Positions 38,086-59,750 are shown, counted from the first letter of the stretch. The stretch: 64,000 nt of DNA from Gammaproteobacteria bacterium (GCA_965207475.1 OZ242278.1:1589935-1653934), one strand, 5' to 3'. Notes: generated from the sequence alone by a model not told the origin. Made by a program: numbers and translations.

Positions 38086-38199
38086 ATGGATAGAATCTTC
38101 TCAAAAATTAACGATCTGAACACCGTACTCTGGGTGGAGACGGCAGTGTTTATTGCAGCTGTAGGCCTCATCTTCGGTCTTGTTGTGGGGGTTTTGTAG
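38086..38199 (+). CDS. Candidate small ORF (37 aa) with hydrophobic C-terminal helix, preceded by a GAGGA Shine-Dalgarno
   Basis: The reading is MDRIFSKINDLNTVLWVETAVFIAAVGLIFGLVVGVL. It lies in the AT-rich region just upstream of the RiPP block and is not in the ORF track (shorter than 60 aa). Confidence 0.25.
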   Translation: MDRIFSKINDLNTVLWVETAVFIAAVGLIFGLVVGVL

Positions 38200-38455
38200 C
38201 CAGTAACGATACTTCATGCACCGGTCATGACCGGCCGGGTCACGACCGGTGCATGCCTGGATTCATGCGTATGGGCTGCATGTGACCTGCAGCATCTCAA
38301 CACCTTCTGAAAGTACACGGCAGTCCCTGCCGAACAGCTGCCCGTATCGTTGACCACGTACTCGGAGCTGCCCGGAGCAAGACAGCTTGACAAGGCAGTC
38401 CAGTTGCTGACAATAAGCTTATCAGGGTGTAAATCTGAATAGGCTGGAGGTCGCG

Positions 38456-40903
38456 ATGGCGGAGTATATGGCAGAACCGGGCGGCCTGGATCCCGGTATA
38501 TCTAGAAGAGGTATGGTCGAGCCGTCGGTTCTGAATGCTCTCCCGCACTTTTTGTCCCTTACAGTTTTTCCACTTTTAATCTGTGCCGTGGTATACGGTG
38601 GCTGGTGGATCATCGGGCCGTTTGTCTACTTCGGGCTCGCAAACTGGTTTGACTCGCTGTTTGGCATGGAAAAGCGAAACATGGACCCGGGCAATACGCT
38701 CGAAAGCCAGTTATTCCTGTACAAGCTAGCTGTCTGGATGTGGGCTGTGATGTGGCCCGCCACACTCGTGCTCTCGCTTTGGCTGATGCTTGTCGCTGAC
38801 CATTTGGCCGTTTGGGAATCTGCACTGATCACCATCACCTTGTTTTTTACAGCCCAGTCAATCTTCATCGTTGGACATGAGCTGGTGCACAGGACCTCCT
38901 GGCTGGAAAGACGGTTTGGTGAATTCCTCTTGGCGTCGTCTTCCTATCCGCATTACGCTACTGAACATATTTATGTTCATCATTCTCTGGCCTGTACGCC
39001 TGCTGATCCCGGGTCTGCGAGAAAGGGCCAGAGTTTCTGGCAGTACTTTCCCAGGGATTTGAGGCGAAGTCTGATCGAGTCCTGGCGTTTTGAGCGCGAC
39101 CGGCTTGCACGACGGCACTTGCCTGTGTGGCACTATACGAATCCTTTCTGGCGCTACTCCCTAGAAACCGCTGCGTGGTATGCGCTGGTGTACTGGATGG
39201 GAGGGATCTGGGTAGCGCTGGTCTTCGCCGTATTGTGTTTCTTCCTTGTCCTGTCGATGAAAATCATCAACTATGTCCAGCACTATGGGCTGGAGCGCAT
39301 CCGCCTTCCCGGCGGCCGGTATGAGCCGGTTCTGGTGCGACACTCCTGGAGTGCTGCCAGCAGGTTCACCAACTGGCTCTATTACAATATGCAACGCCAT
39401 TCGGACCATCACACCGAGGCCACCCGGTACTACCCGCTGTTGCAGTATCACGGTGGGGACGAGTCGCCACAGTTACCGGAAGGTTACTCCGCGATGGCTA
39501 ATTACGCGATGGTCCCTCGTGTCTGGTTCCGAAAGATGGATCCGCTGGTTGATCGCTGGCGTGCACACTTTTATCCACAGATTGAGGACTGGAGCGCCTA
39601 TGACAGCGCTGCATACGCTGCCTGCCCGGACGAGTTCGAAGCCATTTCGGAGATCTATGATGCCGCACCACGCATGGCCGAATGGATAAACCGGGCTCCG
39701 GAACTGCTCGAGAGCCTGCGGGACAGGGAGTTCACCGCTCTTGACCTCCCGGATGGCTTCGCCCCGGATCCGGAATTCGAAATGGTTGCGCGGCGAGGGC
39801 TGGCGCGTGTGTACTGGACACGCGAGTTTGATGTTTCTGAAATGAAGGAGCAACTTGCCGCAATACCGGCCCAGGGCGTAAAGGAAGTGGTAGAGACTGC
39901 AAGAAACTGGCTCAACGACAAGGTCTTTCAGATCAGCATGCACATGATCCGCGGTAATCTGCAGCCGACCGAGGCAGGGAAAGTCCTGTCCAACCTTGCC
40001 GAGGCCTCGGTCTGCATCCTGCTGTCGGCGGTTGAGGTGGAATTTGCCAACCGGCGTCGTCGACGCGGCGAAGGTGCCGTCACAGCTGTACTTCTGGGTG
40101 AATCTGCCAGCGGAGAGGCAGCACCCGGTACAAGGCTCGATGTCATGTTCGCGTACGAAGGCGGCCCTGTAGAATATTATCAAGCCCTGTGCAGACGGTT
40201 CCTTGAGGAACTGCGTACATTTTCGCATGAAAACCTGCTTTTTCAGCCACTTCCACGTGGCGGGAAGGGAAGGGGTGTCTGGTCCGTGGCTGAATTTGCC
40301 GAACATTACCGGGGAGACACGGTGAACGGTCTGCCGGACCTCATTCAGTCACGGTGTGTCTTTGAATCCGGAAATCCCGGAATTTGGACCCGCCTGGACA
40401 CGGTGCGACACGAAGTCCTGTCCTCTGGTGCTTCCCGCATCGCACAGGCAGATGCGTTGCGTGAAGCTCTGGGAGCAGCCGGTACGGCCGAACCGGGTCT
40501 GCAGTCGATCGAAGAAATGCGTGGTGGCCTTCGGGAGCTCGTGCATGCAGCCAGGCTGGTACAACTGGCCCATGCCGGTGAGGCTCCTGAAATTCTGGTT
40601 CCTGATACGGCTTCCGCATTCCGGACTGCAGGCAGTCTCGGGCTGATTGCCGGGGATGTCTCCAGGCGGCTGGCCGATGCAGCAGAGATGTGGTTGAACC
40701 TGCATGGCATTTTGCGACTGGTGGTCAAGGATGGCTTTGCCATCGAGAAGGCAACACCGAAGGTCCAAGCCGTCATTGCCCGTTCCTGCGGGATGAAGGA
40801 TTTCAGTGCGCTGACCGATGCAATACATGAAACGGCGGACCGTACCGCTGCAGACATCGATGCGCTGGACAGCACAGTCCTGAAATCAACCCGTATATCC
40901 TGA
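38456..40903 (+). CDS. Fusion protein: AlkB/fatty-acid-desaturase-type membrane di-iron oxygenase (N-terminal) + GlnE/GlnD-like nucleotidyltransferase domain (C-terminal)
   Basis: His boxes HELVHR, EHIYVHH, NYVQHYGL and RHSDHH lie within TM segments. The C-terminal half aligns with the GlnE adenylyltransferase core (LDVMFAYEG; LFQPLPRGGKGRGVWSVAEFAEHY; LIQSRCVFESGNP). A GGAGG SD precedes the ATG. Confidence 0.7.
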   Translation: MAEYMAEPGGLDPGISRRGMVEPSVLNALPHFLSLTVFPLLICAVVYGGWWIIGPFVYFGLANWFDSLFGMEKRNMDPGNTLESQLFLYKLAVWMWAVMWPATLVLSLWLMLVADHLAVWESALITITLFFTAQSIFIVGHELVHRTSWLERRFGEFLLASSSYPHYATEHIYVHHSLACTPADPGSARKGQSFWQYFPRDLRRSLIESWRFERDRLARRHLPVWHYTNPFWRYSLETAAWYALVYWMGGIWVALVFAVLCFFLVLSMKIINYVQHYGLERIRLPGGRYEPVLVRHSWSAASRFTNWLYYNMQRHSDHHTEATRYYPLLQYHGGDESPQLPEGYSAMANYAMVPRVWFRKMDPLVDRWRAHFYPQIEDWSAYDSAAYAACPDEFEAISEIYDAAPRMAEWINRAPELLESLRDREFTALDLPDGFAPDPEFEMVARRGLARVYWTREFDVSEMKEQLAAIPAQGVKEVVETARNWLNDKVFQISMHMIRGNLQPTEAGKVLSNLAEASVCILLSAVEVEFANRRRRRGEGAVTAVLLGESASGEAAPGTRLDVMFAYEGGPVEYYQALCRRFLEELRTFSHENLLFQPLPRGGKGRGVWSVAEFAEHYRGDTVNGLPDLIQSRCVFESGNPGIWTRLDTVRHEVLSSGASRIAQADALREALGAAGTAEPGLQSIEEMRGGLRELVHAARLVQLAHAGEAPEILVPDTASAFRTAGSLGLIAGDVSRRLADAAEMWLNLHGILRLVVKDGFAIEKATPKVQAVIARSCGMKDFSALTDAIHETADRTAADIDALDSTVLKSTRIS

Positions 40904-41010
40904 GCTTGCACACAGTACGGGCAGGCAGGTTACAAGAGCCCATGACTGAATGGTGCCGACTGGCATGATCGGTCTGGCAGGCACTACCCCGGAGTCGGAG
41001 AATTTCTAGC

Positions 41011-43359
41011 TTGGAGAAAAGTACGGACAGGAAGGCATCACCTAACGCCGGTTCATCCCGCAGTATTCTGAAGAAAACCACCGAAGCTGACTGCGGTTTC
41101 ATCGAGAAACCCGTACTTGTCCCGCACCTGGAATTCAGGTTGCTGGGCGGGCGGCAAGCGCTGCTGGTTTCTGAAACTTTCAACACGCTGCTCCATGGGC
41201 AGCTGGTTTGCGATATTCTGCCGCTTCTTGATGGCCGCCGCACACGCCGGGACATCATGGCATCCCTGACCGGCAAGCATCTGGGGCCCGATATCCTGAC
41301 CGCGCTCACCTTCTTGACAACCAAGGGGTATATTGTCTCGGGGGAGTACAGAATGGAACAGGGGCAGGCGGCATACTGGTCTTCACAGGGTGTCACTCCT
41401 CGATATGCCGAGGAGCGGCTGAAGTCATTGCAGGTAGATGTAGCCGGCGATGAAGGCCGCCACCTTGCCCGGCGGCTTGAAGCCATGGGTGTGTACTTGG
41501 ACAGGAGCCATCCGGCCCTTTCCATTATCATTTGTGCCGATTTTCTTGATGAGCGGAATGCGGCCCTCAACCGGCGCCATGTCAGCTCTGGCGTACCCTG
41601 GTTGCTGGTCAGGCCAAAGGGCGTGATTCCACTGCTTGGCCCGGTTTTCCGGCCTGCGGAGCAGGGGCCTTGCTGGGCCTGCCTGGCCTACCGCCTGCAA
41701 GGCCAGCAGGAGGTCCATAACTTCCTGCGCAATCGTGCCGGCACTGAGGCCGCCTTTCAGCCCTTTGCGGCCGAACCCATGGTGCTGGAGACGGTGTACG
41801 GGCTGTTTGCGGCGGAGATTGCCAAGTGGCTGGTCTTCGGCGAGCTGGCGCCGATACATGAGCATGCAATCACGCTGGATGTCGCTGCACTGAAAACGGC
41901 GAGACATCCGGTGCGCAGGCGACCACAGTGCGTGGTGTGCGGCGAGGAAAGGCACTTCAGCCCTGATCGCCCGGCCAGTCCGGTGCACCTCAAGTCCAGT
42001 CCCAAAAACGTTCAAAACAGTGGTGGTGTGCGCTCGGTGTCTCCCGAAGAGACCCTGGCCAAGTACCGCCATCTCATCAGCCCAGTCAGCGGGGTGGTGA
42101 CCTGGATCGAACGTACCACGGACGTGTACGATCACTGGCTTCATGTCTATTGGGCCGGTAGCAATCTGGCCCTTCGTGTCAAAAACCTGAGCTCGCTGAG
42201 ACGCAGCCTGCGGAGCAAGAGTGCAGGCAAGGGAAGCACACCCGAACAGTCCGAGGCGAGTGCGCTTTGCGAGGCGGTTGAGCGCTATTCGGGCGCATTC
42301 CACGGGGATGAGATCCGTACTTGCAAACGGTTTTCAGAATTTTCTGACAAGGAACAGGAGTTTGACGCCATCCACCCGAACCAGGTCCAGTTGTTCAGTG
42401 ATCACCAGTTCGACCATGCGCGCGAGATCAATGCCAGGCAACATCCCTACAATTTTGTTCCTGGCCGGCTCGACCCGGAGGCTGCGATCGAATGGTCGCC
42501 GGTCTGGTCGCTCACGCGAGGTCGGCACTGTTACCTTCCGACCTCCATGCTCTACAGCATGACGCCGGAGCAGCGAGGCACTTCAGACTTGATTGCGGAT
42601 TCGAACGGCTGTGCGGCCGGCAATACGCTGGAGGAAGCTATCCTGCAGGGATTTTTCGAACTGGTGGAACGTGACGCGTTCGCCATCTGGTGGTACAACC
42701 GGCTGCGCTTTCCCGCGGTCGACCTGGAGAGTTTTGGCGACGCCTACCTTGCGGGTGCGCAGGACTACTACCGAAAGCTCCACCGCGAGATGTGGCTGCT
42801 GGATATCACGGGTGATTTTGGCATTCCGGCCTTTATTTCCATCTCGCGACGAACCGATTCACAACCCGAAGACATCCTGTACGGGGCCGGTGCGCACACC
42901 GATCCGCATATCGCGGCCTTGCGTGCAGTATGCGAAATGAACCAGTGCCTGACCTGGGTTCCCCGCCCGGAAACCGGCCATACCGGGTACGGAGTGGATG
43001 ACCCGATGTGCCTGTCATGGTGGAAGAACGCCACGCTTGAGGAATATCCCTACCTGGCCCCCGATCCTGGGGCCGCAACACGGGGCCGCCCGGATTATTT
43101 CGTGCCCGAAACTTCGGATGTGAAAGAGGATGTCGAGCGGTGCGGTGCACTGGTAAAAGCCAGGGGCCTGGAGATGCTTGTACTTGACCAGACCCGTCCC
43201 GATATCGGCATGCCGGTAGCCCGGGTGATCGTGCCGGGATTGCGTCACTTCTGGGAAAGGTACGCACCGGGGCGCCTGTACGACGTGCCGGTCAACATGG
43301 GCTGGCGGGAAAAACCGCTGGCTGAGGCCGACCTCAACCCCGTCCCGGTCATCGCCTGA
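41011..43359 (+). CDS. Fused E1-like (leader-binding/ThiF-like) + YcaO cyclodehydratase, PatD/TruD-like
   Basis: The 782-aa protein has an N-terminal E1-like domain with Cys pairs (CWAC, CVVCGE) and a C-terminal YcaO domain (ALCEAVERYSG; CAAGNTLEEAILQGFFELVERDAFAIWWYN). It appears to start at TTG. Confidence 0.85.
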   Translation: MEKSTDRKASPNAGSSRSILKKTTEADCGFIEKPVLVPHLEFRLLGGRQALLVSETFNTLLHGQLVCDILPLLDGRRTRRDIMASLTGKHLGPDILTALTFLTTKGYIVSGEYRMEQGQAAYWSSQGVTPRYAEERLKSLQVDVAGDEGRHLARRLEAMGVYLDRSHPALSIIICADFLDERNAALNRRHVSSGVPWLLVRPKGVIPLLGPVFRPAEQGPCWACLAYRLQGQQEVHNFLRNRAGTEAAFQPFAAEPMVLETVYGLFAAEIAKWLVFGELAPIHEHAITLDVAALKTARHPVRRRPQCVVCGEERHFSPDRPASPVHLKSSPKNVQNSGGVRSVSPEETLAKYRHLISPVSGVVTWIERTTDVYDHWLHVYWAGSNLALRVKNLSSLRRSLRSKSAGKGSTPEQSEASALCEAVERYSGAFHGDEIRTCKRFSEFSDKEQEFDAIHPNQVQLFSDHQFDHAREINARQHPYNFVPGRLDPEAAIEWSPVWSLTRGRHCYLPTSMLYSMTPEQRGTSDLIADSNGCAAGNTLEEAILQGFFELVERDAFAIWWYNRLRFPAVDLESFGDAYLAGAQDYYRKLHREMWLLDITGDFGIPAFISISRRTDSQPEDILYGAGAHTDPHIAALRAVCEMNQCLTWVPRPETGHTGYGVDDPMCLSWWKNATLEEYPYLAPDPGAATRGRPDYFVPETSDVKEDVERCGALVKARGLEMLVLDQTRPDIGMPVARVIVPGLRHFWERYAPGRLYDVPVNMGWREKPLAEADLNPVPVIA

Positions 43360-43498
43360 GGAGCCAGCCTGTTTAGGGAGCATCTCCATGCCGTGGAAAT
43401 GAGCCCCATCCTGTAGGGGGTGTTGCTCAGGTCTGCTGGGCCTTGAGCGTACAACCTGGGTCAGTGTGCATGGGCACTGCAGGACCTGTACAAATTCG

Positions 43499-43526
43499 TT
43501 GACATTCCGTCCCGGCGGACTATATT
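43499..43526 (+). promoter_or_regulatory. Near-consensus sigma70 promoter (TTGACA-N16-TATATT) upstream of the MMPL exporter gene
   Basis: The hexamers were read directly from the sequence and lie about 250 nt upstream of the ATG at 43774. Confidence 0.35.
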
Positions 43527-43773
43527 CTCCACCGCATTGACCTTCAGTCTGTGTTGCCGCGGATGGTAAATACCTTGATCAACCTTGGTTTGGACTCAGT
43601 GGATTCGGAGCACGTGGTCTAAGTTGGACTGCTCTCGGAGTAACAGGGTTGCAGGCTGCGAAATGGCATGTTTATTACTTGGCATGAGGCTTCCGTTGCA
43701 ATGAAGCTTGTTGCGCGACTTGCCGCCAAGGCCGTTCGCAGCTAGTCACGTCATTCCTGTGAGCAAGCGCGGC

Positions 43774-46104
43774 ATGAAAAAAGGGCAATTTGCCAGGCGA
43801 TTTGCCGAACAGGTGCTCACGGCCCGCTGGCTGGTCATCGTGGCCACGCTGTTACTGGTTGCGGGCGCATCAAGCGGCATCGCCCTGCTTGAATTCTCAG
43901 CCAACTACCGAATCTTCTTCGACGAAGACAATCCGCAGCTTCTGGCATTGGAAGCACTGGAGAATACTTACGGGAAGAACGAGAACATCGTGTTCCTGAT
44001 TGCCCCGGACGATGGTGACGCCACGTCACAAAACGCACTGTCGGCCGCCGTCTGGCTCACGGAAGCCGCCTGGTTGACGCCCTATTCAAGGCGAGTCGAC
44101 TCACTCGCCAATTTTCAGTACACGACTGCCGATGGCGACGATCTGTATGTGCGGGACCTTGTTGATCCGCAGGAACTGGCCCAGGCCGAGGTGCGGTCAC
44201 GAATTCGTGACGTTGCCCTGTCCGACCCGCGGATAGCAGGCACCATTCTAGCCCGGAATGCTGATGTCAGCGTTGTAAACGTCGCGGTCGAGCTGCCCGA
44301 GGAGGGCCTGCTGGAGGCTGTGGCCGAAGTCGCCGAATATGCCAGGTCGGTTGCCGCGGAGGCTGAAGAACGGTTTCCCGACATAGACCTTCGCATCGTC
44401 GGTACGGTCATGATCAACCAAACCTTCCTGGAAGCCTCGATCAACAGCCAGAAGGTTTTCCTGCCCGCAAGCCTGCTGCTCATGGCCTTGATCCTTGGTG
44501 TCCTCACACGGGGCTGGGCAGGGGTGGCGGCGACCGGAATTGTCATAGTCTTTTCCATTTTCACGTCAGTGGGCCTGGGTGTGTGGGTCGGCTTACCCTT
44601 TTCCCCGCCCGTCTCGCCAGCACCGACCATCGTGCTGATGATCGTCGTGGCAAACTGTGTGCACTTGCTGGTGGCTGTGCAGCAGCATTTGCGTGCGGGG
44701 GATTCCAAGCACGACGCCATCGTTGAAGCTGTCAGGCTCAACTTGCACCCGGTATTTCTGGCGAGTCTCACAACGGCGATTGGATTCTTGAGCATGAACT
44801 TTTCCGAAGTGCCGCCCTATCGTCATCTCGGAAACTTCGTCGCATTCGGAATCGTCGCCTCTTTCGTTCTCTCCGTCACCTTTCTTCCGGCCCTGCTTTC
44901 GCTTCTTCCTATCCGTGCGGCAAAGGACCGTCGGCTGCTCCGCGGACCCACAATGCACCGCTTGGCGGATGTTGTGTTGCGCCATAGAAAGCCGCTGTTT
45001 TGGGGATGGCTGGTGGTTGTGCTTGCAATGATTCTGTCCATTCCGCGAAACGAGCTCAATGATGTTCTGGTCCACTTTTTCGATGAGGGCGTTGAATTCC
45101 GGCAAGATGTGGACTTCATGGACGAGCACCTAAGCGGCAACACCCTGCTTGAGTACTCGCTGCACGCATCTGCTGAGGGAGGTGTCACCGATCCGCTTTT
45201 CCTCGCCGAGGTTTCGAGCTTCGCCGGCTGGTACCGTGACCAGCCCCCTGTACGCCACGTGTCGGTCATTACCGATACCTTTCAGCAACTTAACAAGAGC
45301 ATGCACGGAGACGACCCGGGTGCCTACCGAATACCGGAAAGCCAGGAACTGGCGGCACAATACCTGCTGCTTTACGAACTCTCGCTTCCGCAGGGTCTGG
45401 ACCTGAACAATCAGATTGACAGGTCCAGATCAGCCACGAGAGTGACGGTCTCGGCGGAAACACTTTCTTCGCAAGAAGTGCTTGAGCTGAATGCGCGTGC
45501 CGAGGCATGGCTAAAGGAAAATGCATCGCATGTTGCCGGCGTCAACAGCACCGGCCCCGCCGCGTTGTTCGCCTACATCGGGCATCGCAACATTCGGGCC
45601 ATGCTAGTCGGGACAATGGTTGTTCTCTTGGCAATTTCTGTCATTCTGCTCGTCGCGTTGCAATCACTGCGACTGGGCTTGATAAGCATCGTCCCCAATT
45701 TGATTCCTGCAGTGCTGGGCTTCGGTGTCTGGGGATTGATGGTCGGACAGGTTGGACTTTCGCTATCTGTCGTGGTGGCCATGACCGTCGGCATCGTCGT
45801 GGATGACACTGTGCATTTTCTCAGCAAGTACCAGCGGGCGCGAAATGAATACGGCCAGAGTCCCGAGGAAGCGGTACGCTACGCCTTTGACACGGCAGGC
45901 CGGGCCCTGTTTACAACGACGGTCGTGCTGGTGGCCGGTTTTTTGATTTTTATGTTTTCACCCTTCGTTCCCACCGCACAGGTTGGTGTCCTCACCGGGA
46001 TGATTATTGCCTTTGCATTCATCGCCGACCTGACACTCCTGCCTGCGTTGCTGACAGCGGTGGACCGGAATGCTGCAAAGCGGACCGCGCTTGCACCCGA
46101 CTGA
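43774..46104 (+). CDS. MMPL-family / RND-superfamily exporter (HpnN-like, two SSD-like 6-TM bundles)
   Basis: The 776-aa protein has an N-terminal TM (RWLVIVATLLLVAG) and two periplasmic domains with an overall MMPL layout. The ATG at 43774 is preferred over the TTG at 43708. Confidence 0.8.
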   Translation: MKKGQFARRFAEQVLTARWLVIVATLLLVAGASSGIALLEFSANYRIFFDEDNPQLLALEALENTYGKNENIVFLIAPDDGDATSQNALSAAVWLTEAAWLTPYSRRVDSLANFQYTTADGDDLYVRDLVDPQELAQAEVRSRIRDVALSDPRIAGTILARNADVSVVNVAVELPEEGLLEAVAEVAEYARSVAAEAEERFPDIDLRIVGTVMINQTFLEASINSQKVFLPASLLLMALILGVLTRGWAGVAATGIVIVFSIFTSVGLGVWVGLPFSPPVSPAPTIVLMIVVANCVHLLVAVQQHLRAGDSKHDAIVEAVRLNLHPVFLASLTTAIGFLSMNFSEVPPYRHLGNFVAFGIVASFVLSVTFLPALLSLLPIRAAKDRRLLRGPTMHRLADVVLRHRKPLFWGWLVVVLAMILSIPRNELNDVLVHFFDEGVEFRQDVDFMDEHLSGNTLLEYSLHASAEGGVTDPLFLAEVSSFAGWYRDQPPVRHVSVITDTFQQLNKSMHGDDPGAYRIPESQELAAQYLLLYELSLPQGLDLNNQIDRSRSATRVTVSAETLSSQEVLELNARAEAWLKENASHVAGVNSTGPAALFAYIGHRNIRAMLVGTMVVLLAISVILLVALQSLRLGLISIVPNLIPAVLGFGVWGLMVGQVGLSLSVVVAMTVGIVVDDTVHFLSKYQRARNEYGQSPEEAVRYAFDTAGRALFTTTVVLVAGFLIFMFSPFVPTAQVGVLTGMIIAFAFIADLTLLPALLTAVDRNAAKRTALAPD

Positions 46105-46354
46105 AGTCCATTCCGAACGCCTTCTTGAGGAGGAAGCACGTCCTCAGGCTCGTTTCCGGACCCATGCACTCCTGCGAACCATGGCGTGCGATCAAGGCTG
46201 TTGGCTTCATACACCTTCAGGCAGGAGCCCTAGGGAGGGAACTTGATCAGGAAAACGAGACTGAAAGCGGCTTGGCCCCCAAGCCTGCGCACTGAACCGG
46301 AAATTCACGGTCTTGACTGCTTGAAATAGCCATGTTAACGTCATATCACGAACG

Positions 46355-46371: not shown

Positions 46372-46393
46372 ATCTGAATACAGGAGAATCATC

Positions 46394-46645
46394 ATGAGAA
46401 GCGGAGATGATATGCTGAAGCAGATTGTTGAGAAGTCTGCCTTGAATGCGGAGTTCAGGCAACAGCTTCTTGATGATCCAAAATCTACCATCAGTGGGGA
46501 GCTGGGTATTACAATTCCCGATTCGATGAATGTCGTGGTCCATGAGAGCGACATGCAGACGGTGCATCTTGCACTGCCACCGGACCCGAACATCACCGAG
46601 GAGCAGCTTGAGGCGATTTCAGCCGGCCTTTGCTGTTGCTGGTAG
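46394..46645 (+). CDS. NHLP (nitrile-hydratase-leader-peptide) family RiPP precursor; predicted core LCCCW after a GA/GG-type cleavage site (…EAISAG|LCCCW)
   Basis: The leader reads KQIVEKSALNAEFRQQLLDDPKSTISGELGITIPDSMNVVVHESDMQTVHLALPP, which is characteristic of NHLP leaders. An AGGAG SD lies 7 nt upstream, and the protein is 83 aa with a C-terminal Cys3-Trp. Confidence 0.8.
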   Translation: MRSGDDMLKQIVEKSALNAEFRQQLLDDPKSTISGELGITIPDSMNVVVHESDMQTVHLALPPDPNITEEQLEAISAGLCCCW

Positions 46646-52894: not shown

Positions 52895-55104
52895 CAGCCC
52901 GACTTAACCAGTTTGTAATACATGCCACCCTGGTCCGCAATCAACTCATCGTGCGTACCGCGCTGTACTGTAACGCCCTTGTCAAGCACGATAATTTCGT
53001 CACAATCCCGCACGGTACTCAGCCGGTGCGCCAAGATCAGGCAGGTGACACCGCGACGCCGCAAGGCATCATCAACGTATTCCTCTGTCGCTGCATCGAA
53101 CGCGCTGGTCGCCTCGTCCAGAATGAGCACTGTCGGATTGCCCACCAGCGCACGGGCGATTTCCAGCCGTTGTCGCTGGCCTCCACTGAAATTCACACCG
53201 CCTTCCTCGACGACGGTTGAATATCCTTGTGGCCTGAGCAGGATTTCGTCATGAATCTGGGCATCCCGCGAGGCGGCGAAGATGACTTCATCCGGTATGG
53301 CTGAGTTCCATAAGGTGATATTGTCGCGCAGCGACGCGGAAAAGAGCACGATTTCCTGATCCACCATGGAAATGGACTGCCGGAGCACTTCCTCGGGAAT
53401 CTCATCCCGCAGATGCCCATCGAACAGGATTTCGCCTGACCATGGCTGGTAGACACCCGAAACCAGACGTGCCAGGGTCGACTTGCCAGAACCACTGGGA
53501 CCGACTACGGCAACCCGCTGTCCTGGTTTGATCATGAGGCTGAAGTCCTGTATCAAAGGCGGTCGGCTCTTGTTGAAACCGAAGGTGACGTTTTGCAGTT
53601 CAAGCTGGCCGGCAAGCTGGAGCCGACCATTGAATGTGGGGATTGACTCCGATTCCGGACTTCGGCGGCTGTAAATGGGGTCTTCAGCGGTCTTGGAGAT
53701 ATCCTCAAGCCGTTGCAGATCGGTTTCGAGCGCCTGGCGTTTGTCGACGAACCCCAAAAAACGGCCAACAGGTGCCAGGAACATCTCTGCCAGGATATAG
53801 AACCCAACCAGTGCTCCCAGGGTCATTTCGCCGGTCATGACCAGGCTTCCCCCTATGCCGATGATCACGGCACTGCGAAGCACGGCAACCAGGCCCGGAA
53901 GCGCAGTATTGACCGAGCCCAGTTCGGAATAGAGCTGGCGCGCATGCAGTTCGCGCGCTTGATGACCGCTCCAGCGGGAAAAAAACCGGTCATCCGATCC
54001 TGTCATGCGCAGGTTGTCTGCATGGCTCAACATCTGCATGCCGACGCCTATCAACAATCCTTGTTCTCGCCGCATGGCCTGGCTGCGAACCCCCCGAAGC
54101 GCGTTGAGAAAGTGGAGCAACATTCCATGTGCAAGGGCCAGCAACAGTACCATCAGTGTGAGCAGGACATCGTAGGCCAGCATCGCGGCCAGTAACACCG
54201 CGCTCATTGCCATGTCGATAATGAGCACAAGAAACTGGTCGGTCAGGTTCTTCGCAATCCTGTCGATGGACGAGACCCGGTCAGTCAAATCACCTGCCAG
54301 CCTGTGTTCAAAAAACTCCACCGGCAATCGCAGTAACCGCGACACGCCCCGGTTGTAGCCAATCACCGATATCCGGACTTCGAGTCGCTTCAGGAACCGG
54401 TGCTTGAGCAGGGACAAAATGTATACCAGGACACCGCCGCCGAGCAGGGCTGCCACCAGTCCACCCCAGGGACCATGGTTTTCCAGAACATCGTCCACGA
54501 AAAAACTGAGAGCTACGGGCACAACAAGTGCCAGTAACGTCAACATGAATCCGCAAGCAATCACTACGGCAAGCACACTCCATGATCCGGCAAGCAAGGT
54601 GGTCAATTGACTGAGCAAGTCGGGACGCTCGCCGCCGGGTTTGAAATCGCCACTGCGCTTGAATCGCAGCGCAATTCCACTGTAGTCCTTGCTGAATTCT
54701 TCGGCAGTAACCCTGCGCCGCCCCGTGGACGGGTCATTGAGGTAGAAATAGCCGTCATCGAAACCCTCAAGGACAACGAAATGGCTGAATTGCCAGAACA
54801 AAATCAGAGGCAACTGCAGCTTCTTCAGTTGCTCAGCGCGTATACTGAGTCCATTGCATTCAAGACCATAGTGTCTGGAAGCGCGCGCGAGGCTCGCAGC
54901 ACTGCTGCCGTCTCGACTCACCTCGCATTTTTCGCGCAATTCCGTAAGCGGCACCCAGCGTCCGAAGTATGCCAATATGCTGCCAAGGCAGGCGGCACCA
55001 CATTCTGATGCGTGCATCTGTAGTAGGATTGGCGTGGTGATCCTTTGTTTCAAGGAGTCCGAGGCAGTGTTGTCTCCAGCCCCTTTAGAGGCGCTTGGCG
55101 GCAT
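52894..55104 (-). CDS. NHLP-type bacteriocin ABC transporter with N-terminal C39 peptidase domain (peptidase/permease/ATPase)
   Basis: A C39 active-site Cys lies in QMHASECGAACL, followed by 6 TM, Walker A GPSGSGKST and signature FSGGQRQR. Confidence 0.85.
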   Translation of the reverse strand: MPPSASKGAGDNTASDSLKQRITTPILLQMHASECGAACLGSILAYFGRWVPLTELREKCEVSRDGSSAASLARASRHYGLECNGLSIRAEQLKKLQLPLILFWQFSHFVVLEGFDDGYFYLNDPSTGRRRVTAEEFSKDYSGIALRFKRSGDFKPGGERPDLLSQLTTLLAGSWSVLAVVIACGFMLTLLALVVPVALSFFVDDVLENHGPWGGLVAALLGGGVLVYILSLLKHRFLKRLEVRISVIGYNRGVSRLLRLPVEFFEHRLAGDLTDRVSSIDRIAKNLTDQFLVLIIDMAMSAVLLAAMLAYDVLLTLMVLLLALAHGMLLHFLNALRGVRSQAMRREQGLLIGVGMQMLSHADNLRMTGSDDRFFSRWSGHQARELHARQLYSELGSVNTALPGLVAVLRSAVIIGIGGSLVMTGEMTLGALVGFYILAEMFLAPVGRFLGFVDKRQALETDLQRLEDISKTAEDPIYSRRSPESESIPTFNGRLQLAGQLELQNVTFGFNKSRPPLIQDFSLMIKPGQRVAVVGPSGSGKSTLARLVSGVYQPWSGEILFDGHLRDEIPEEVLRQSISMVDQEIVLFSASLRDNITLWNSAIPDEVIFAASRDAQIHDEILLRPQGYSTVVEEGGVNFSGGQRQRLEIARALVGNPTVLILDEATSAFDAATEEYVDDALRRRGVTCLILAHRLSTVRDCDEIIVLDKGVTVQRGTHDELIADQGGMYYKLVKSG

Positions 55105-55656
55105 TTATGACCGCCTCATTCGCAATAGTGTGACCGGGGCTTGCCTGCCAATTTTGATGACAACCTGGCATTCCCTGCTCGCAAGGGAAGCAAAATAAAG
55201 GCTTTCGTCGAGTGTGATGTTTACCCGGTGTAAGGACACCGGCGCTGCAGGGTCGAACACTGCCAGCTCCTCGGATAAGGGTATGGCGGTGATTTTTGCA
55301 ACCTTTCCGTCGAGTGAGTCAGCTTGTCCACCTGACTTTTCCAACTCTATCACCGCTGGCATCCCGGCCTTGATATGCGGTGCGACGTCGCTCCGGGCCC
55401 AGACGAGCACTTGCACGGTCCTGTTGCCCTCAAGCAGGTTTTCACCAGGCTCGACCAGCACGCCATCCACCGCGAGACTACGGGCCATGCTCCCGAAGAA
55501 GAGCCACGCAGCAAGGATGAACAGTAAAAGAGCAATGACAGCAACAAGAAGCCGCTCCCGCGGTGTGGAAATCGTCAGCAGCCGGTCAAGTTGTTCCCGT
55601 TCTTCCTTTGCTTCGGCAACAGTGTTGTGGAATGAGTCAAATGGATTATTGAACAC
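55105..55656 (-). CDS. Short HlyD-like secretion (membrane-fusion) protein of the NHLP export module
   Basis: A single N-terminal TM precedes a periplasmic domain. It is only 183 aa, against about 400 aa for typical NHLM secretion proteins, and is translationally coupled to the C39 ABC gene. Confidence 0.55.
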   Translation of the reverse strand: MFNNPFDSFHNTVAEAKEEREQLDRLLTISTPRERLLVAVIALLLFILAAWLFFGSMARSLAVDGVLVEPGENLLEGNRTVQVLVWARSDVAPHIKAGMPAVIELEKSGGQADSLDGKVAKITAIPLSEELAVFDPAAPVSLHRVNITLDESLYFASLASRECQVVIKIGRQAPVTLLRMRRS

Positions 55657-56150
55657 GACCGTGAATCTCCCTATGAAAAATCAGGCAGGGGCAAAAATCT
55701 GGTCCAGCTTGAGTAGGATTTTTAGAGATTATATGCAAATATCGATTGTGAAATATAAAATTTTCATGGTTCTGGAAATTTAGTGTGGTGTGTATCGGCG
55801 GAGGGCTTTCAGGCCAGGTCGTTTTCAGCTTCTTTATTTTGGTCAAGCCCCGTTTCTGGTCTTCCATCCGGAGGCAGTGGAGCCAGTAGCCTGTGATCGC
55901 GGCGGGAAGGGCATGGTACAGGTCGCCGGCAATCCCATGCCGTGGTGGCCTCCTCGTCGATGCCGGTGATCACCGGCATCGTGTCATGAATCCTCTGCCG
56001 AGTGCGCCCTGTTGGAATTTCCAGCCAGCCCATGGCTTCACCCTTTGCAGGGAATTCACGGTATAATGCCACTCGTTTGTCACGGTACCTGTGTAGATGT
56101 TTCCTGACTACGAAACTGCCGAAATCCGGCTTGTCGGCCGAGACTGGACA

Positions 56151-56969
56151 ATGGGCTTCCCGTGTACACAGGGTGCTTCGTTCAGTGTTCTGATTCTGTT
56201 ACTGGCGTGCTTCTGCCTGCTGCATACGCACGTCCTCGCCCGGGAAGAAACGCCGGAGGAGAAGGGTCTGAGAATTGCGCGTGAAGCAAGCGCCCGCAAC
56301 GACGGATTCGATGATTTCACTGCTGGAATGACGATGGTGCTGCGCGACCGGCAAGGTCGGGAGAGCATCCGTCAGATGCGCTTCAAGGTGCTGGAGGTGC
56401 CGGGTGATGGCGATAAGAGCCTGTTTGTGTTCGATCAGCCGCGAGACGTACAGGGGACCGCCCTGTTGACCCATGGCCACATTAACTCCCAGGACGACCA
56501 GTGGCTGTATCTGCCGGCCCTGAAAAGAGTGAAGCGCATCAGTGCCACGGCGCGTTCCGGGTCATTTATGGGAAGCGAGTTTTCCTACGAGGACATGAGC
56601 TCTCCGGAGGTGGAGGAATACACGTACAAATACCTTCGCGACGAGCCCTGCGGCGAACTCACCTGTACAGTGACCGAGCAAGTCCCTCTGGAGAAAAAAT
56701 CCGGATACAGCCGCAAGGTCATTTGGCAAGACACAGGCGAACTTCGCGTCTGGAAGATGGAGCTCTATGACCGAAGGAACTCGCATCTGAAAACGCTCAC
56801 TTTTGAAAGCTACAAGCAATACCTGGGCCGGTACTGGCGGGCAGGCGAACAGACGATGGTGAATCACTTGACCGGGGCGAGCACTGTGCTTAAATGGACC
56901 GATTACCGGTTTCGCACCAATCTTGAAGACAGCGAATTCACCAAACCGGCACTTCGGCGCGTGCGCTGA
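56151..56969 (+). CDS. Outer-membrane lipoprotein-sorting (LolA-like) family protein, typical partner of MMPL exporters
   Basis: A signal peptide precedes a WLYLPALKRVKRIS region typical of LolA-like/DUF1329-type proteins. Its stop is coupled to the downstream OMP gene. Confidence 0.6.
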   Translation: MGFPCTQGASFSVLILLLACFCLLHTHVLAREETPEEKGLRIAREASARNDGFDDFTAGMTMVLRDRQGRESIRQMRFKVLEVPGDGDKSLFVFDQPRDVQGTALLTHGHINSQDDQWLYLPALKRVKRISATARSGSFMGSEFSYEDMSSPEVEEYTYKYLRDEPCGELTCTVTEQVPLEKKSGYSRKVIWQDTGELRVWKMELYDRRNSHLKTLTFESYKQYLGRYWRAGEQTMVNHLTGASTVLKWTDYRFRTNLEDSEFTKPALRRVR

Positions 56970-58198
56970 TGCGATTCGGTGTCGCAATTTCAGCCCTCGT
57001 GTTCATGGCTGCCGCAGTCGCCGAAGTTCAGGCCCTTGACGTTTCGGGGGACCTGAGCTTACAGGCACGATGGTATCCGCAGTCGCCGGCTTTCCCGGGA
57101 CAGCATTCAAGTACCGTCGGGATGGTTTTCAAGCCGACGCTTTACTGGGATTTTACAGAAAGCACCAGCTTCACCTTTACCCCGCTTTATCGATTCGATA
57201 GAGCCGATTCACGGCGGACGCATGCGGACCTGCGGGAGGCCTACCTGTTGACATATGGAGACTGGGGCGAGAATTCCTGGGAGCTTCGGCTGGGGCTTGA
57301 CCGTGTATTCTGGGGTGTGGCCGAGATTCATAACCTCGTGGATATCATCAACCAACTGGACCGTGTCGAGCACCCGCGCGACCGACCCAAGCTGGGTCAG
57401 CCTATGGCACATCTGACGATTTCCGGTGACTGGGGTCTCGCTGAATTGTTTCTGCTGCCGTACCATCGCAAGCTCACGTTTCCGGGGCGTTCCGGGCGTC
57501 TCCGCTCGGAACGCCTGATCGAAGATGAAGGCCTGTACGAGAGCGGTGCCAAGGAACGCCATGTGGATTTTGCGTTCCGCTATAGCCATGGCGTGGGGTT
57601 GCTTGATTTTGGCCTGAGTACCTTTGTTGGAACGAGCCGGGATCCCTTGTTTCTTGCTGCCAACCCATCCGGACCATTGCCGGGAATTGACACGCCCTTG
57701 ATCCCGTACTACGAGCAGATTCGGCAATTCGGGCTCGAAGCCCAGTTCACGACCGAGTCCTGGCTTTACAAGATGGAAGCCATTCGCCGTAGCGGAGCGC
57801 GCAATCTCCTGGGCCAAGAGGAGGATTACAACGCCTTCATCCTGGGCCTGGAGCGCACTCTCTATGCGTTGTTTGATTCCACTGCGGACATGACCCTCCT
57901 TGGTGAGTGGTTCTACGATGATCGTGGAAGCCGTGCTACAAGTGTCTGGCAGAACGACCTGTTTATCGCGGGCTTCCTTGCACTCAACGATGTACAGGGT
58001 ACAGAGCTCGTGGCTGGCATCCTGACGGACCTCCGCCATGAATCCAGTACGCTGAACATGGAACTGAAACGCCGGTTGTCGGATAGCTGGTCGATGCGCC
58101 TGGAAGCGTTCGCGAACATACGCGCGAACCCGGAGGATTTGACCTACGATGGGCGGCGCGACAGCTTCGTCGGTATTGATTTCACACTCAGTTTCTGA
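56969..58198 (+). CDS. Putative outer-membrane beta-barrel protein (C-terminal aromatic residue, alternating amphipathic strands)
   Basis: A signal peptide (AAAVAEVQA) is present and the protein ends in F. It forms a trio with the LolA-like and MMPL genes. Confidence 0.5.
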   Translation: MRFGVAISALVFMAAAVAEVQALDVSGDLSLQARWYPQSPAFPGQHSSTVGMVFKPTLYWDFTESTSFTFTPLYRFDRADSRRTHADLREAYLLTYGDWGENSWELRLGLDRVFWGVAEIHNLVDIINQLDRVEHPRDRPKLGQPMAHLTISGDWGLAELFLLPYHRKLTFPGRSGRLRSERLIEDEGLYESGAKERHVDFAFRYSHGVGLLDFGLSTFVGTSRDPLFLAANPSGPLPGIDTPLIPYYEQIRQFGLEAQFTTESWLYKMEAIRRSGARNLLGQEEDYNAFILGLERTLYALFDSTADMTLLGEWFYDDRGSRATSVWQNDLFIAGFLALNDVQGTELVAGILTDLRHESSTLNMELKRRLSDSWSMRLEAFANIRANPEDLTYDGRRDSFVGIDFTLSF

Positions 58199-58405
58199 TG
58201 ATGCACGTGGCGGGTGCCATACAGGTTGCCTTCAGCAACTGACACCCAGCAGATGCTGAACAGCAGGGCAAGACGGGCCTTGCTGCTGCAAGCCAGTGTC
58301 TTTCTTGGAGACCATGAATTACCTGCAGGGCCGCAGTCGGGCTGACCCATGAAAAAGTTTGTGAACCGTGACAATGATAGGTGACGATGCTAGGATTTTG
58401 CGGGA

Positions 58406-59750
58406 GTGTTGTGTACACGACACATCCAAATATCCCGAGAAGGTGTTATCGACCGACATCTGTGGAAGTCATGTAGGGTGATTCAGCCGGGCAGTAAAAC
58501 ATTACGGAAGATTGCGGTTGTCGGGCGGGGGACCGCAGGGTCCTTGGCGGCAGCAAGCATAGCGCGACTTCACCCCGACAGCGACTACGAACTGCACCAC
58601 ATATATGACTCGCGCATCCCGGTCATTGGAGTGGGTGAAGGCAGTTGGCCGAGCCTGGTTCAACAATTGCAACAACTGACAAGTTTGCCCCATGACACCA
58701 TCCAGCAGCACTTGAGAGGAACCCGCAAGTACGGGGTTGCATTCGAGGGATGGGGTCGACGCAATCGAAACTTCACGCACTACTTTACACCGCGAAAGGT
58801 GTCCTACGCCTACCACCTGTCCGCCGACTTGATGGCGGATTTGCTGCACGAAAACACGCGCGCGCCACATCGATGCGAAAGTGCGCGATATCACCAGGAT
58901 AGAGGGTGGTGCACGGGTGGAGTTCGAGGGCCTGGCGCCGGAGCACTACGATTTAGTCTTTGATGCCCGCGGGTTTCCCAGGAAACTCCATCCAGACCAG
59001 CACATCGATATTTCTTTCATTCCCACCAATACAGCCGTCATCCGCCGCTGTCCGGCGATTATCAAGGAAGAGCAGGATGGACCCGTGCTGCAACATACCT
59101 ATACCCGTGCCGTTGCATGTCCGCACGGGTGGATATTCGTTATTCCGCTTACAGTACATACATCTTACGGGTACATCTTCAACCGCGATGTGTCCAGCCT
59201 TGCCGAAGTCGAATCAGACTTTGATGTTTTCCTTGACACCGATGGCGTGTCGGAATTTGAGCAACGTGCTGTCATACCGTTTCCCAATTTTGTCCACCGC
59301 CAGATTTATGATGGTGCGGTGGCTCGCATAGGCAATGCAGCCGCCTTCATGGAGCCCCTTGAAGCAACGGCCATTGTATCGGCCCAGATACAGATTGGGA
59401 TGGTACTCCACATGCGTCTCAACCGTTCGATAGAGTATCTTGAACGTGACGTGCCGATGGTCAATCAATTTCTTGTCAACAACATCCTCTGCTACGGCCT
59501 GTTCGTCGGTTGGCACTATTCCTGTGGCTCTAAGTATGATAGTGGATTTTGGCGCCATGCTCGTGACCGGGTTTGGCCACGATATCGTAAGGCAACAGAT
59601 CCCGAAGTTGTGGGCTGTGCCGCACTCCGCAAATTCGACGAAATGTTCGAATTGATGAGCCAGTCGAGCATCGACAAGGCAGACTGGACTCGAATGTGCG
59701 CGGTCCCGCTCACCAGTTATGTGCAGATGTCCGAGGGTCTTGGCTGCTAG
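58406..59750 (+). pseudogene. Flavin-dependent tryptophan halogenase, disrupted by a +1/-1 frameshift near 58860-58875 (assembly error or true pseudogene)
   Basis: The two overlapping ORFs (58406..58963 and 58881..59750) together carry GRGTAGS (GxGxxG), GWIFVIP (WxWxIP-like) and GNAAAFMEPLEATAI halogenase motifs. Removing one base in the ACGCGCGCGCCA run restores ...HENTRAHIDAKVRDITRIEGG. Confidence 0.7.

What the first reader, a model, noticed from the sequence alone, without database searches (positions are those of the whole stretch)
38086..59750. NHLP/TOMM-like RiPP island with an unusual enzyme set
One contiguous block encodes an NHLP-leader precursor, a PatD-like fused E1/YcaO cyclodehydratase, the classic NHLP export module (C39-ABC, second ABC and an MFP) and a Trp halogenase. 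It also carries enzymes not normally seen in thiazole/oxazole RiPP clusters. These are an AlkB-type membrane oxygenase fused to a GlnE-like nucleotidyltransferase domain, an NHLP-leader::alpha/alpha-toroid fusion protein, a 352-aa unknown protein, and an MMPL lipid-type exporter with LolA-like and OMP partners. The block opens with an anomalously AT-rich stretch (~37975-38085) in an otherwise high-GC window, which is consistent with horizontal acquisition. I do not recognise this combination as a described RiPP class.
Basis: partly seen in the sequence, partly recalled or inferred. Interest (0 to 1): 0.9.

Follow-up and report, generated by a model that had tools for sequence, protein, structure and literature searches.

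The report
Known sponge-symbiont srp peptide gene cluster
This 22-kb block is a copy of the already described "srp" peptide gene cluster of marine-sponge bacteria; its product is still unknown, and two of its uncharacterised genes have the folds of a prenyltransferase and a terpene cyclase, which suggests a lipid-like group is added to the peptide.

Summary
The gene inventory is correct almost gene for gene. The claim that the combination is undescribed is not. The 83-aa precursor ends in ...EAISAG|LCCCW. That is SrpE of the srp ("sponge-derived RiPP proteusin") cluster of Nguyen et al. (JACS 2021). In that system the YcaO SrpC makes three thiazolines and the flavin brominase SrpI brominates the C-terminal Trp.

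I fetched 80 related loci from MAGs of at least eight bacterial classes. The "unusual" genes recur with the precursor at 50-88% identity and in shuffled orders, so this is one cluster.

New here:
- The AlkB part matches solved alkane monooxygenases, but the nucleotidyltransferase motif of the GlnE-like part is degenerate.
- The window's srpI carries a 2-nt frameshift.
- The AT-rich stretch is real, but the island's GC equals its flanks.

Verdict: a new member of a known family whose product is still cryptic. I infer that the product is prenylated or lipidated; this is untested.

The parts
37975..38085 (.). AT-rich intergenic region upstream of the + strand operon, probably its promoter region
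   Evidence: GC 0.32, the lowest in the window. Sigma-70-like site TTAACA-17-TATACT at 38021-38049.
38086..38199 (+). 37-aa hydrophobic small ORF; lineage-specific, not a core srp gene
   Evidence: No family hit. Found in only 4 of 85 loci (L001, L002, L006, L007).
38456..40903 (+). AlkB-type membrane di-iron monooxygenase fused to a degenerate GlnE-like domain
   Evidence: FA_desaturase and GlnE hits. Residues 52-368 match solved alkane 1-monooxygenases 8f6t (E 2e-56) and 8sbb. The His-box segments are conserved in 39 homologues, while the nucleotidyltransferase carboxylate motif is incomplete and variable. It lies next to the YcaO gene in most loci.
41011..43359 (+). SrpC-type fused leader-binding/E1-like + YcaO cyclodehydratase
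   Evidence: PF21084, TIGR03882 and TIGR03604/PF02624 hits. Present in 53 of 63 full-length loci.
43708..46104 (+). MMPL / HAE3 (HpnN-like) RND hydrophobe exporter
   Evidence: PF03176, TIGR00921 and TIGR03480 hits. Found in 22 of 63 loci at about 82% identity.
46394..46645 (+). SrpE precursor: NHLP leader with ITEEQL motif, SAG cleavage site and core LCCCW
   Evidence: TIGR03793 66 bits. Core LCCCW in 66 of 68 related loci. Matches published SrpE (PMC10286304, PMC10858898).
46769..47827 (-). ABBA (PT-barrel) aromatic-prenyltransferase-fold protein; putative peptide prenyltransferase
48293..49594 (-). NHLP-like N-terminal domain fused to a single-domain class II terpene-cyclase-like alpha/alpha toroid
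49952..52894 (-). NHLP-type export ABC transporter, second subunit
   Evidence: TIGR03797 665 bits. Present in 62 of 63 loci.
52894..55104 (-). C39-peptidase ABC transporter (leader cleavage and export)
   Evidence: TIGR03796 840 bits and PF03412. Present in 59 of 63 loci.
55105..55656 (-). Short (183-aa) HlyD-like membrane-fusion protein
   Evidence: Only the N-terminal 50 residues match TIGR03794. The 183-aa length recurs in 17 related loci.
55657..56096 (.). Second AT-rich intergenic region between divergent operons
   Evidence: GC 0.33-0.35 at 55661-55800, the second-lowest in the window.
56097..56969 (+). LolA-like periplasmic protein (possible lipoprotein; the sequence contains LLAC)
   Evidence: PF17131, 7e-60. 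Found in 28 of 63 loci.
56969..58198 (+). Predicted outer-membrane beta-barrel protein
   Evidence: Signal-peptide-like N-terminus, C-terminal ...TLSF, weak DUF1302 hit. Found in 22 of 63 loci, usually after the LolA-like gene.
58478..59750 (+). srpI flavin-dependent Trp brominase gene, disrupted by a 2-nt deletion after 58853
   Evidence: PF04820 on both fragments. Alignment to L009, L011 and L049 shows the deletion. 25 of 25 homologues are in a single frame. The most common intact form (424 aa, 10 of 19 scanned) has K84, Y102 and Y110, as published for SrpI (PMC10286304).

Best explanation
The block is a chromosomal copy of the srp (sponge-derived RiPP proteusin) biosynthetic gene cluster in an uncultured gammaproteobacterium. 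The related MAGs are of the kind recovered from sponge metagenomes.

Shown elsewhere for this family: the YcaO SrpC converts the three Cys of the SrpE core LCCCW to thiazolines, and the flavin enzyme SrpI brominates the C-terminal Trp in a leader-dependent way.

Inferred here:
1. The C39-ABC / ABC2 / short-MFP module cuts after SAG and exports the pentapeptide.
2. The conserved accessory genes also act on the peptide, so the mature product is probably lipid-like. The ABBA-fold protein would prenylate it, most likely on the Trp indole. The NHLP-tagged class II cyclase-like toroid would act on the prenyl chain. The AlkB-type enzyme would oxidise an alkyl or prenyl carbon.
3. The MMPL / LolA-like / OMP set would carry the hydrophobic product across the envelope.

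In this genome srpI is frameshifted, so the product would lack bromine if the frameshift is real.
For: Family identity:
- LCCCW core, ITEEQL leader motif and 83-aa length match published SrpE.
- The halogenase homologues carry K84, Y102 and Y110 as reported for SrpI.
- The cyclodehydratase is a fused E1-like/YcaO enzyme.
- A near-identical locus lies on a 912-kb metagenome scaffold (L001).

Single cluster:
- In 63 loci with full 10-kb flanks, counts are SrpE 58, toroid 58, ABC2 62, ABC1 59, YcaO 53, AlkB-GlnE 41, short MFP 31, LolA-like 28, MMPL 22, OMP 22 and halogenase 22-23. The flanking UDG appears once and gcvT never.
- There are 36 different gene orders.
- In one genome AlkB-GlnE, the halogenase and YcaO stay together about 300 kb from the core.

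Folds:
- ABBA prenyltransferase fold.
- Class II terpene cyclase fold.
- AlkB.

Precedent: the mpp cluster pairs an SrpI-like brominase with a leader-dependent ABBA Trp-geranyltransferase and a terpene synthase (PMC11791876, PMC12715784).
Against: - No chemistry beyond thiazoline formation and bromination has been shown for srp, and the product is called cryptic.
- The ABBA fold includes inactive members (PatF is among the hits), and identity to any solved prenyltransferase is only about 10%.
- The toroid model is only moderate (pLDDT 62). The segment holding the conserved D-L-D-S-T motif is modelled with low confidence, and I could not align that motif to a catalytic DxDD.
- No prenyl-diphosphate synthase or AlkB electron partner lies in the island.
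- MMPL, LolA-like, OMP and halogenase genes were seen in only about a third of loci, although the 10-kb flanks make these counts lower bounds.
- I could not read the founding paper (PMC8780398 is not held), so I do not know which accessory genes it already annotated.
Confidence: 0.8

Rival explanations
1. One reading: this is an undescribed RiPP class with a new enzyme combination.
For: The accessory genes have no Pfam or NCBIfam assignment or only generic ones. A 2025 survey still lists 'several genes of unknown function' in LCCC-motif proteusin clusters.
Against: The precursor core, YcaO and brominase are exactly those of the srp family published in 2021 and studied since. More than 900 homologues of each accessory protein are already in public data.
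Confidence: 0.03
2. Two unrelated systems lie side by side: a RiPP module, and an independent lipid or hydrocarbon module made of AlkB, MMPL, the LolA-like protein and the OMP.
For: AlkB plus RND, LolA-like and OMP genes would make sense on their own as a hydrophobe oxidation and transport set. MMPL, LolA-like and OMP genes are missing within 10 kb in many loci.
Against: These genes are interleaved with RiPP genes in the window. They recur at 70-88% identity next to srp genes in several phyla and in many orders. AlkB-GlnE is adjacent to the YcaO in most loci, and it stays with the YcaO and the halogenase when separated from the core. The window's own flanking housekeeping genes do not travel with them.
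Confidence: 0.05
3. The product is simply the exported (bromo-)tri-thiazoline pentapeptide. The ABBA-fold and toroid proteins are non-catalytic, acting as scaffold, leader-mimic regulator of the YcaO, chaperone or immunity protein.
For: PatF, an inactive ABBA homologue, is among the structural matches. The toroid carries an NHLP domain whose L(X)4L motif is changed to L(X)4R in the window and in the variants recovered from about 45 related loci, so it could be a decoy or docking domain. The GlnE-like domain has already lost its catalytic motif.
Against: Both proteins are under strong constraint (70-86% identity across phyla), with many invariant Arg, Lys and Tyr residues in the 352-aa protein and an invariant acidic motif and QW repeat in the toroid. 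An AlkB hydroxylase and lipid-type exporters are hard to explain for a small polar peptide.
Confidence: 0.3
4. The toroid fusion is a second cargo. Its NHLP domain would be a real secretion leader, cut at the conserved (T/A/G)-G site by the C39 transporter, and the cyclase-like domain would then work in the periplasm on the exported peptide.
For: The fusion is colinear with SrpE up to the cleavage site. Gly at -1 is invariant in the alignment, and -2 is T, A or G in different loci. The MFP is short, which fits export to the periplasm only.
Against: Positions -4 and -7, which are hydrophobic in SrpE (I/V and L), are A and an invariant R in the fusion. A folded toroid of about 350 aa is far larger than the usual cargo of C39 transporters (established knowledge).
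Confidence: 0.15

Closest known systems
srp (sponge-derived RiPP proteusin) BGC: SrpE / SrpC / SrpI (Nguyen et al., JACS 2021; PMC10286304; PMC10858898)
   Same: NHLP precursor with LCCCW core and (I/L)TEEQL motif. Fused YcaO cyclodehydratase. Flavin Trp halogenase with K84, Y102 and Y110. Spread across many bacterial phyla in MAGs of sponge type.
   Different: The window has a minority gene order (3-4 of 63 loci). Its AlkB-GlnE and YcaO are a divergent subtype, only about 50% and 62% identical to the majority. It has an MMPL gene between the YcaO and the precursor. Its srpI is frameshifted.
Cyanobactin pathways (PatD/TruD heterocyclase with PatF/PagF/LynF ABBA prenyltransferases)
   Same: A fused E1-like/YcaO heterocyclase makes azolines from Cys, and the cluster also holds an ABBA-fold protein. 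PagF, PatF, LimF and KgpF are structural matches.
   Different: There are no PatA/PatG proteases and no macrocyclisation. The leader is NHLP and export is by C39-ABC. The ABBA protein shares about 10% identity with these and gives no Pfam hit.
mpp cluster of Moorena producens (MppI, MppC, MppD; PMC11791876, PMC12715784)
   Same: A long structured leader, an SrpI-like Trp brominase, an ABBA prenyltransferase acting on Trp in a leader-dependent way, a terpene-type enzyme and an oxygenase.
   Different: mpp is a lanthipeptide cluster (LanM, Nif11 leader) with no YcaO. Its terpene enzyme is described as a terpene synthase, not an NHLP-fused class II cyclase-like toroid.
MstE and other single-domain class II terpene cyclases (PDB 6sbb, 8paj, 6ij1)
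   Different: The srp protein has an N-terminal NHLP domain. A catalytic DxDD equivalent was not established; there is only an invariant D-L-D-S-T segment in a poorly modelled loop.
AlkB alkane 1-monooxygenase (PDB 8f6t AlkB-rubredoxin fusion, 8sbb)
   Same: Residues 52-368 align over the whole catalytic domain, and the His-box segments are conserved.
   Different: The C-terminal fusion partner is a GlnE-like domain with a degenerate nucleotidyltransferase motif rather than a rubredoxin. The substrate is presumably a peptide-linked alkyl or prenyl group, which is untested.

Membership tests
srp BGC (sponge-derived RiPP proteusins) | NHLP/proteusin precursor with core LCCCW | tested here: met
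   46394-46645: TIGR03793 66 bits, C-terminus SAGLCCCW. The core is quoted in PMC10286304 and PMC10858898.
srp BGC (sponge-derived RiPP proteusins) | L(X)4L-type recognition motif in the leader (LTEEQL / ITEEQL) | tested here: met
   ITEEQL lies before EAISAG. The ITEEQL variant is reported in bioRxiv 10.1101/2023.06.09.544420.
srp BGC (sponge-derived RiPP proteusins) | YcaO cyclodehydratase (SrpC) encoded with the precursor | tested here: met
   41011-43359: TIGR03604 274 bits plus TIGR03882. I did not compare it directly with the published SrpC sequence, which is not held.
srp BGC (sponge-derived RiPP proteusins) | Intact SrpI-type flavin-dependent Trp brominase | tested here: inconclusive
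   An orthologue is present, and the most common intact form among related loci has K84, Y102 and Y110. The window copy has a 2-nt deletion after 58853. I could not tell a real pseudogene from an assembly error.
srp BGC (sponge-derived RiPP proteusins) | Occurrence in sponge microbiomes across many bacterial taxa | tested here: met
   80 loci come from MAGs of Gamma-, Alpha- and Deltaproteobacteria, Acidobacteriota, Opitutales, Gemmatimonadaceae, Binatia and Rhodothermales, including 'Spongia_Bin9'. The sponge origin of the window's own sample is inferred from record names only.
TOMM / azoline-forming RiPP | E1-like leader-binding domain plus YcaO, with a Cys/Ser/Thr-rich core | tested here: met
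   the core has three Cys.
TOMM / azoline-forming RiPP | FMN-dependent azoline dehydrogenase (B protein) to give azoles | tested here: not met
   None of the island's main ORFs listed in 'parts' has a nitroreductase or McbC-type hit. This fits the reported thiazoline (not thiazole) products.
ABBA (PT-barrel) aromatic prenyltransferases | Barrel of about ten antiparallel strands from repeated alpha-beta-beta-alpha units | tested here: met
ABBA (PT-barrel) aromatic prenyltransferases | Sequence-level family membership (Pfam Trp_DMAT / PTase_Orf2 or PDB sequence match) | tested here: not met
   No Pfam, NCBIfam or PDB sequence hit for the protein, its profile or 10 distant relatives.
ABBA (PT-barrel) aromatic prenyltransferases | Prenyl-diphosphate binding and prenyl transfer activity | not testable with these tools
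   Many Arg, Lys and Tyr residues are invariant in the alignment, but their placement in the barrel was not examined.
Class II terpene cyclases (SHC/OSC/MstE type) | Alpha/alpha toroid with QW-type repeats | tested here: met
Class II terpene cyclases (SHC/OSC/MstE type) | Catalytic DxDD (or D-C-T-A) general-acid motif | tested here: inconclusive
   D209-L-D211-S-T is invariant and resembles the motif. It lies in a low-confidence part of the model (residues 192-231), and no sequence alignment to a known motif was obtained.
AlkB alkane monooxygenase family | Membrane di-iron domain with the conserved His boxes and the HYG motif | tested here: met
   GHELVHR, EHIYVHH, NYVQHYGL and QRHSDHH are present, and these segments are conserved in 39 homologues. 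Match to 8f6t at E 2e-56.
GlnE-type nucleotidyltransferases | Catalytic G-x-x-x-R-E...D-x-D carboxylate motif | tested here: not met
   The matching segment reads LG(D/E)xAS(G/R)E..PG...(D/E/N/R/H/S)... The first Asp is absent in all 39 sequences and the second is variable. I placed the motif from my own knowledge of GlnE, not from a tool alignment.

The most novel reading that the evidence does not exclude
The long-cryptic srp product, encoded in many bacterial phyla of sponge microbiomes, may be a RiPP-terpenoid hybrid. After thiazoline formation and Trp bromination, an unannotated ABBA prenyltransferase family would prenylate the pentapeptide. A class II terpene-cyclase-like enzyme, tethered through its own NHLP domain, would process the prenyl chain. 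A peptide-directed AlkB would oxidise it. The lipid-like product would leave the cell by an MMPL / LolA-like / OMP route. To my knowledge a class II cyclase acting inside a RiPP pathway has not been reported. I could not check this against the founding srp paper.
Probability: 0.3. Interest if true: 0.7.

Novelty: new member of a known kind. Interest (0 to 1): 0.4.

Why it matters
The srp clusters are reported to be ubiquitous in sponges with high microbial abundance. The precursor gene is reported to be among the most highly transcribed biosynthetic genes there (bioRxiv 10.1101/2023.06.09.544420). The final compound and its role in the symbiosis are still unknown.

The conserved "unknown" genes have the folds of a prenyltransferase, a class II terpene cyclase and an AlkB hydroxylase, and they sit with lipid-type exporters. 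This gives concrete, testable mass shifts and co-expression experiments for finding the real product.

For the genome scan itself, the result is that the flagged island is a known family, not a new RiPP class.

Tried and rejected
- Exact look-ups of the window's own 352-aa protein and gcvT found nothing, so the source contig is not in that index.
- The founding paper could not be read (PMC8780398 and its DOI are not held). The supplement of PMC10858898 names only srpE and srpI. Searches for srpA, srpB, srpD and similar names found no description.
- Profile and sequence searches of the 352-aa family against PDB and Pfam gave nothing. Only fold comparison was informative.
- I tried to align the toroid's D-L-D-S-T segment to a known DxDD motif by profile search of PDB. 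Only the QW repeat aligned.
- A metagenome scan for the exact sequence around the srpI frameshift found nothing, so whether the frameshift is real or an assembly error stays open.
- The afdb50 fold library was unavailable.
- No tRNA gene and no Rfam family lies in or next to the island, so there is no tRNA-linked integration site.
- I considered and rejected composition as evidence of acquisition.
- I considered and rejected the GlnE-like domain as an active adenylyltransferase.

Full report
**Observation**

On the + strand:
- 38086-38199: a 37-aa hydrophobic ORF.
- 38456-40903: an 815-aa AlkB-type protein with a GlnE-like C-terminal half.
- 41011-43359: a 782-aa winged-helix + TOMM leader-binding (TIGR03882) + YcaO (TIGR03604) fusion.
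- 43708-46104: an MMPL/HAE3 RND exporter.
- 46394-46645: an 83-aa NHLP precursor (TIGR03793, 66 bits) ending in ...ITEEQLEAISAG|LCCCW.

On the - strand:
- 46769-47827: the 352-aa protein with no family hit.
- 48293-49594: a 433-aa protein with an NHLP-like N-terminus and an SQHop_cyclase-type repeat.
- 49952-52894: TIGR03797 ABC.
- 52894-55104: TIGR03796 C39-ABC.
- 55105-55656: a 183-aa HlyD-like protein that matches only the first 50 positions of TIGR03794.

Then on the + strand again:
- 56097-56969: LolA_like.
- 56969-58198: an outer-membrane-type protein.
- A Trp halogenase split into two overlapping ORFs.

A UDG-family gene and gcvT/gcvP flank the block. The AT-rich stretch 37975-38085 is real. 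Its GC is 0.32 and it holds the lowest-GC windows in the 64 kb. It carries a promoter-like site at 38021-38049. The second-lowest GC lies in the divergent intergenic region at about 55.66-55.80 kb. The island's overall GC (0.566) and GC3 values match the flanks, so composition does not indicate recent acquisition.

**What it is**

A full-text search for the core sequence LCCCW led to work from the Agarwal laboratory. LCCCW is the core of SrpE, the precursor of the srp ("sponge-derived RiPP proteusin") clusters. The YcaO SrpC cyclodehydrates the three Cys to thiazolines. The flavin-dependent SrpI is an obligate, leader-dependent brominase of the C-terminal Trp (PMC10286304, PMC10858898, PMC12615548).

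A preprint reports 191 such precursors with the ITEEQL variant seen here. They are encoded by a 252-bp gene that is very highly transcribed in sponges. Two surveys report srp-like or LCCC-motif proteusin clusters in sponge microbiomes (PMC9426513 and PMC11832590).

The halogenase fits as well. The most common intact form among related loci is 424 aa (10 of 19 scanned), with Lys84, Tyr102 and Tyr110. Those are the residues named for SrpI. I could not obtain the founding paper.

**One cluster or neighbours?**

The 352-aa protein has 941 relatives in the large protein collection. The 120 best hits listed are 77-99% identical, and those with a source name come from Gammaproteobacteria, Acidobacteria, Rhodospirillaceae and Methylobacterium records. 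The toroid fusion and the AlkB-GlnE fusion behave the same way.

I fetched 80 loci from species-representative genomes, all MAGs. They come from Gamma-, Alpha- and Deltaproteobacteria, Bryobacterales/Terriglobia/Vicinamibacterales, Opitutales, Gemmatimonadaceae, Binatia and Rhodothermales. I then searched them with every window protein. Among the 63 loci with full 10-kb flanks:

| Gene | Loci (of 63) |
|---|---|
| ABC2 | 62 |
| ABC1 | 59 |
| SrpE | 58 |
| Toroid | 58 |
| YcaO | 53 |
| AlkB-GlnE | 41 |
| Short MFP | 31 |
| LolA-like | 28 |
| Halogenase | 22-23 |
| MMPL | 22 |
| OMP | 22 |
| Flanking UDG | 1 |
| Flanking gcvT | 0 |

These are lower bounds because of the flank limit. There are 36 distinct gene orders. 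The commonest is ABC1 > ABC2 > toroid > AlkB-GlnE > YcaO > ABBA protein > (SrpE, opposite strand) > LolA-like > OMP > halogenase.

The window's order is a minority form (L006-L008, and nearly L084). Its AlkB-GlnE and YcaO are a divergent subtype, about 50% and 62% identical to the majority. The other genes are 73-86% identical.

In one 4.9-Mb contig, AlkB-GlnE, the halogenase and YcaO sit together about 300 kb from the transporter-toroid-ABBA-SrpE core. One copy is flanked by IS66 transposases and an integrase. The single-cluster reading is therefore well supported. Horizontal spread is shown by this distribution, not by GC.

**The uncharacterised proteins**

*The toroid.* Its first 81 residues align without gaps to SrpE (32% identity, E 4e-18). 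SrpE's SAG|L falls on K-T-G|V. The Gly is invariant in the alignment and the residue before it is T, A or G. The second Leu of the L(X)4L motif is replaced by an invariant Arg, and the hydrophobic -4 residue by Ala. Published work shows that SrpI relies on those Leu side chains and describes L(X)4L binding to C39 peptidase domains. I therefore infer that the domain is a docking or mimic domain rather than a cleaved leader. The alternative, a secreted cyclase, is kept as a rival.

*The AlkB fusion.* Residues 52-368 match the solved alkane monooxygenases 8f6t (E 2e-56) and 8sbb. The His-box and HYG segments are conserved in 39 homologues. The GlnE-like half keeps a conserved N-terminal part. Its nucleotidyltransferase carboxylate motif lacks the first Asp everywhere and varies at the second. 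It is probably not an active adenylyltransferase. It occupies the position of the rubredoxin domain in the 8f6t fusion. This last point rests on my knowledge of that structure.

**Mechanism**

Shown for the family elsewhere: thiazoline formation by SrpC and Trp bromination by SrpI on leader-bearing SrpE.

Inferred from family knowledge: cleavage after SAG and export by the C39-ABC / ABC2 / short-MFP module.

Inferred from folds and conserved linkage:
- Prenylation by the ABBA protein, with Trp indole the most likely site because the best matches are indole prenyltransferases.
- Action of the cyclase-like toroid on the prenyl chain.
- Oxidation by the AlkB enzyme.
- Transfer of the hydrophobic product by MMPL, the LolA-like protein and the OMP. 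The 183-aa MFP is less than half the length of the TIGR03794 model (421 positions), which would fit export only as far as the periplasm.

A related precedent is the mpp cluster. There an SrpI-like brominase, a leader-dependent ABBA Trp-C5 geranyltransferase, a terpene synthase and an oxygenase accompany a long-leader RiPP.

Against this model:
- ABBA homologues can be inactive (PatF).
- No prenyl-diphosphate synthase or electron partner is in the island.
- None of this chemistry has been observed.

**This copy**

The window's srpI has lost 2 nt after position 58853 relative to homologues, whereas 25 of 25 other copies are in a single frame. This could be a real pseudogene, in which case the product lacks bromine, or an assembly error. 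A scan for the junction sequence found nothing.

**Verdict**

The interpretation as an undescribed RiPP class is not supported: this is a member of the srp family, in a minority architecture.

The residual interest lies in the accessory enzymes. The literature I could read still treats them as unknown, and the fold assignments here turn them into testable predictions (masses).

Noticed in passing
window 58478-59750 (deletion after 58853): The srpI brominase gene is frameshifted by a 2-nt deletion in a non-homopolymer context (GAAA^ACACGCGCG). All 25 homologues checked are intact.
   Followed up: partly
window 38086-38199: A 37-aa hydrophobic ORF heads the + strand operon. It is conserved only in the closest relatives (L001, L002, L006 at 97%; L007 at 59%). 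Its function is unknown, and a gene was called there in L001.
   Followed up: partly
L003 1-13518: An srp core (truncated C39-ABC, ABC2, toroid, ABBA protein, SrpE) is flanked by IS66 transposase genes and a phage-type integrase, with a RelE/HTH toxin-antitoxin pair nearby. No YcaO lies within 10 kb. It looks like a mobile or decaying copy.
   Followed up: no
L086 (same 4.9-Mb contig as L036): AlkB-GlnE, the halogenase and YcaO lie about 300 kb from the core locus. They sit next to two AcrB-type RND pump pairs, an IS110 transposase and a Pyr_redox_2/Reductase_C protein that could be a rubredoxin-reductase-like electron donor for AlkB.
   Followed up: no
L079 and L083: Two separate srp loci lie on one 4.13-Mb contig (CBDBZU010000004.1), so a genome can hold more than one copy.
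   Followed up: no
L021: A 2.5-kb contig of a Rhodothermales MAG named 'Plut_88865' carries the ABBA gene and part of the YcaO. The name suggests a non-sponge host (possibly a coral). That would be at odds with my recollection of the founding paper's abstract (not held here), which describes the cluster as sponge-restricted. Not verified.
   Followed up: no
related loci: One of the 68 precursors has core LSCCW instead of LCCCW. All others are identical in the last 8 residues apart from I/V at -4.
   Followed up: no
window 55661-55800: The second most AT-rich spot of the window lies between the divergent transporter operon and the LolA-like/OMP/srpI operon. It is probably a shared promoter region. 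A 73-aa ORF called there in L001 looks spurious.
   Followed up: no
window 49952-52894, residues 1-290 of the product: The second ABC protein has an N-terminal extension of about 290 aa that lies outside the TIGR03797 match and has no Pfam hit.
   Followed up: no
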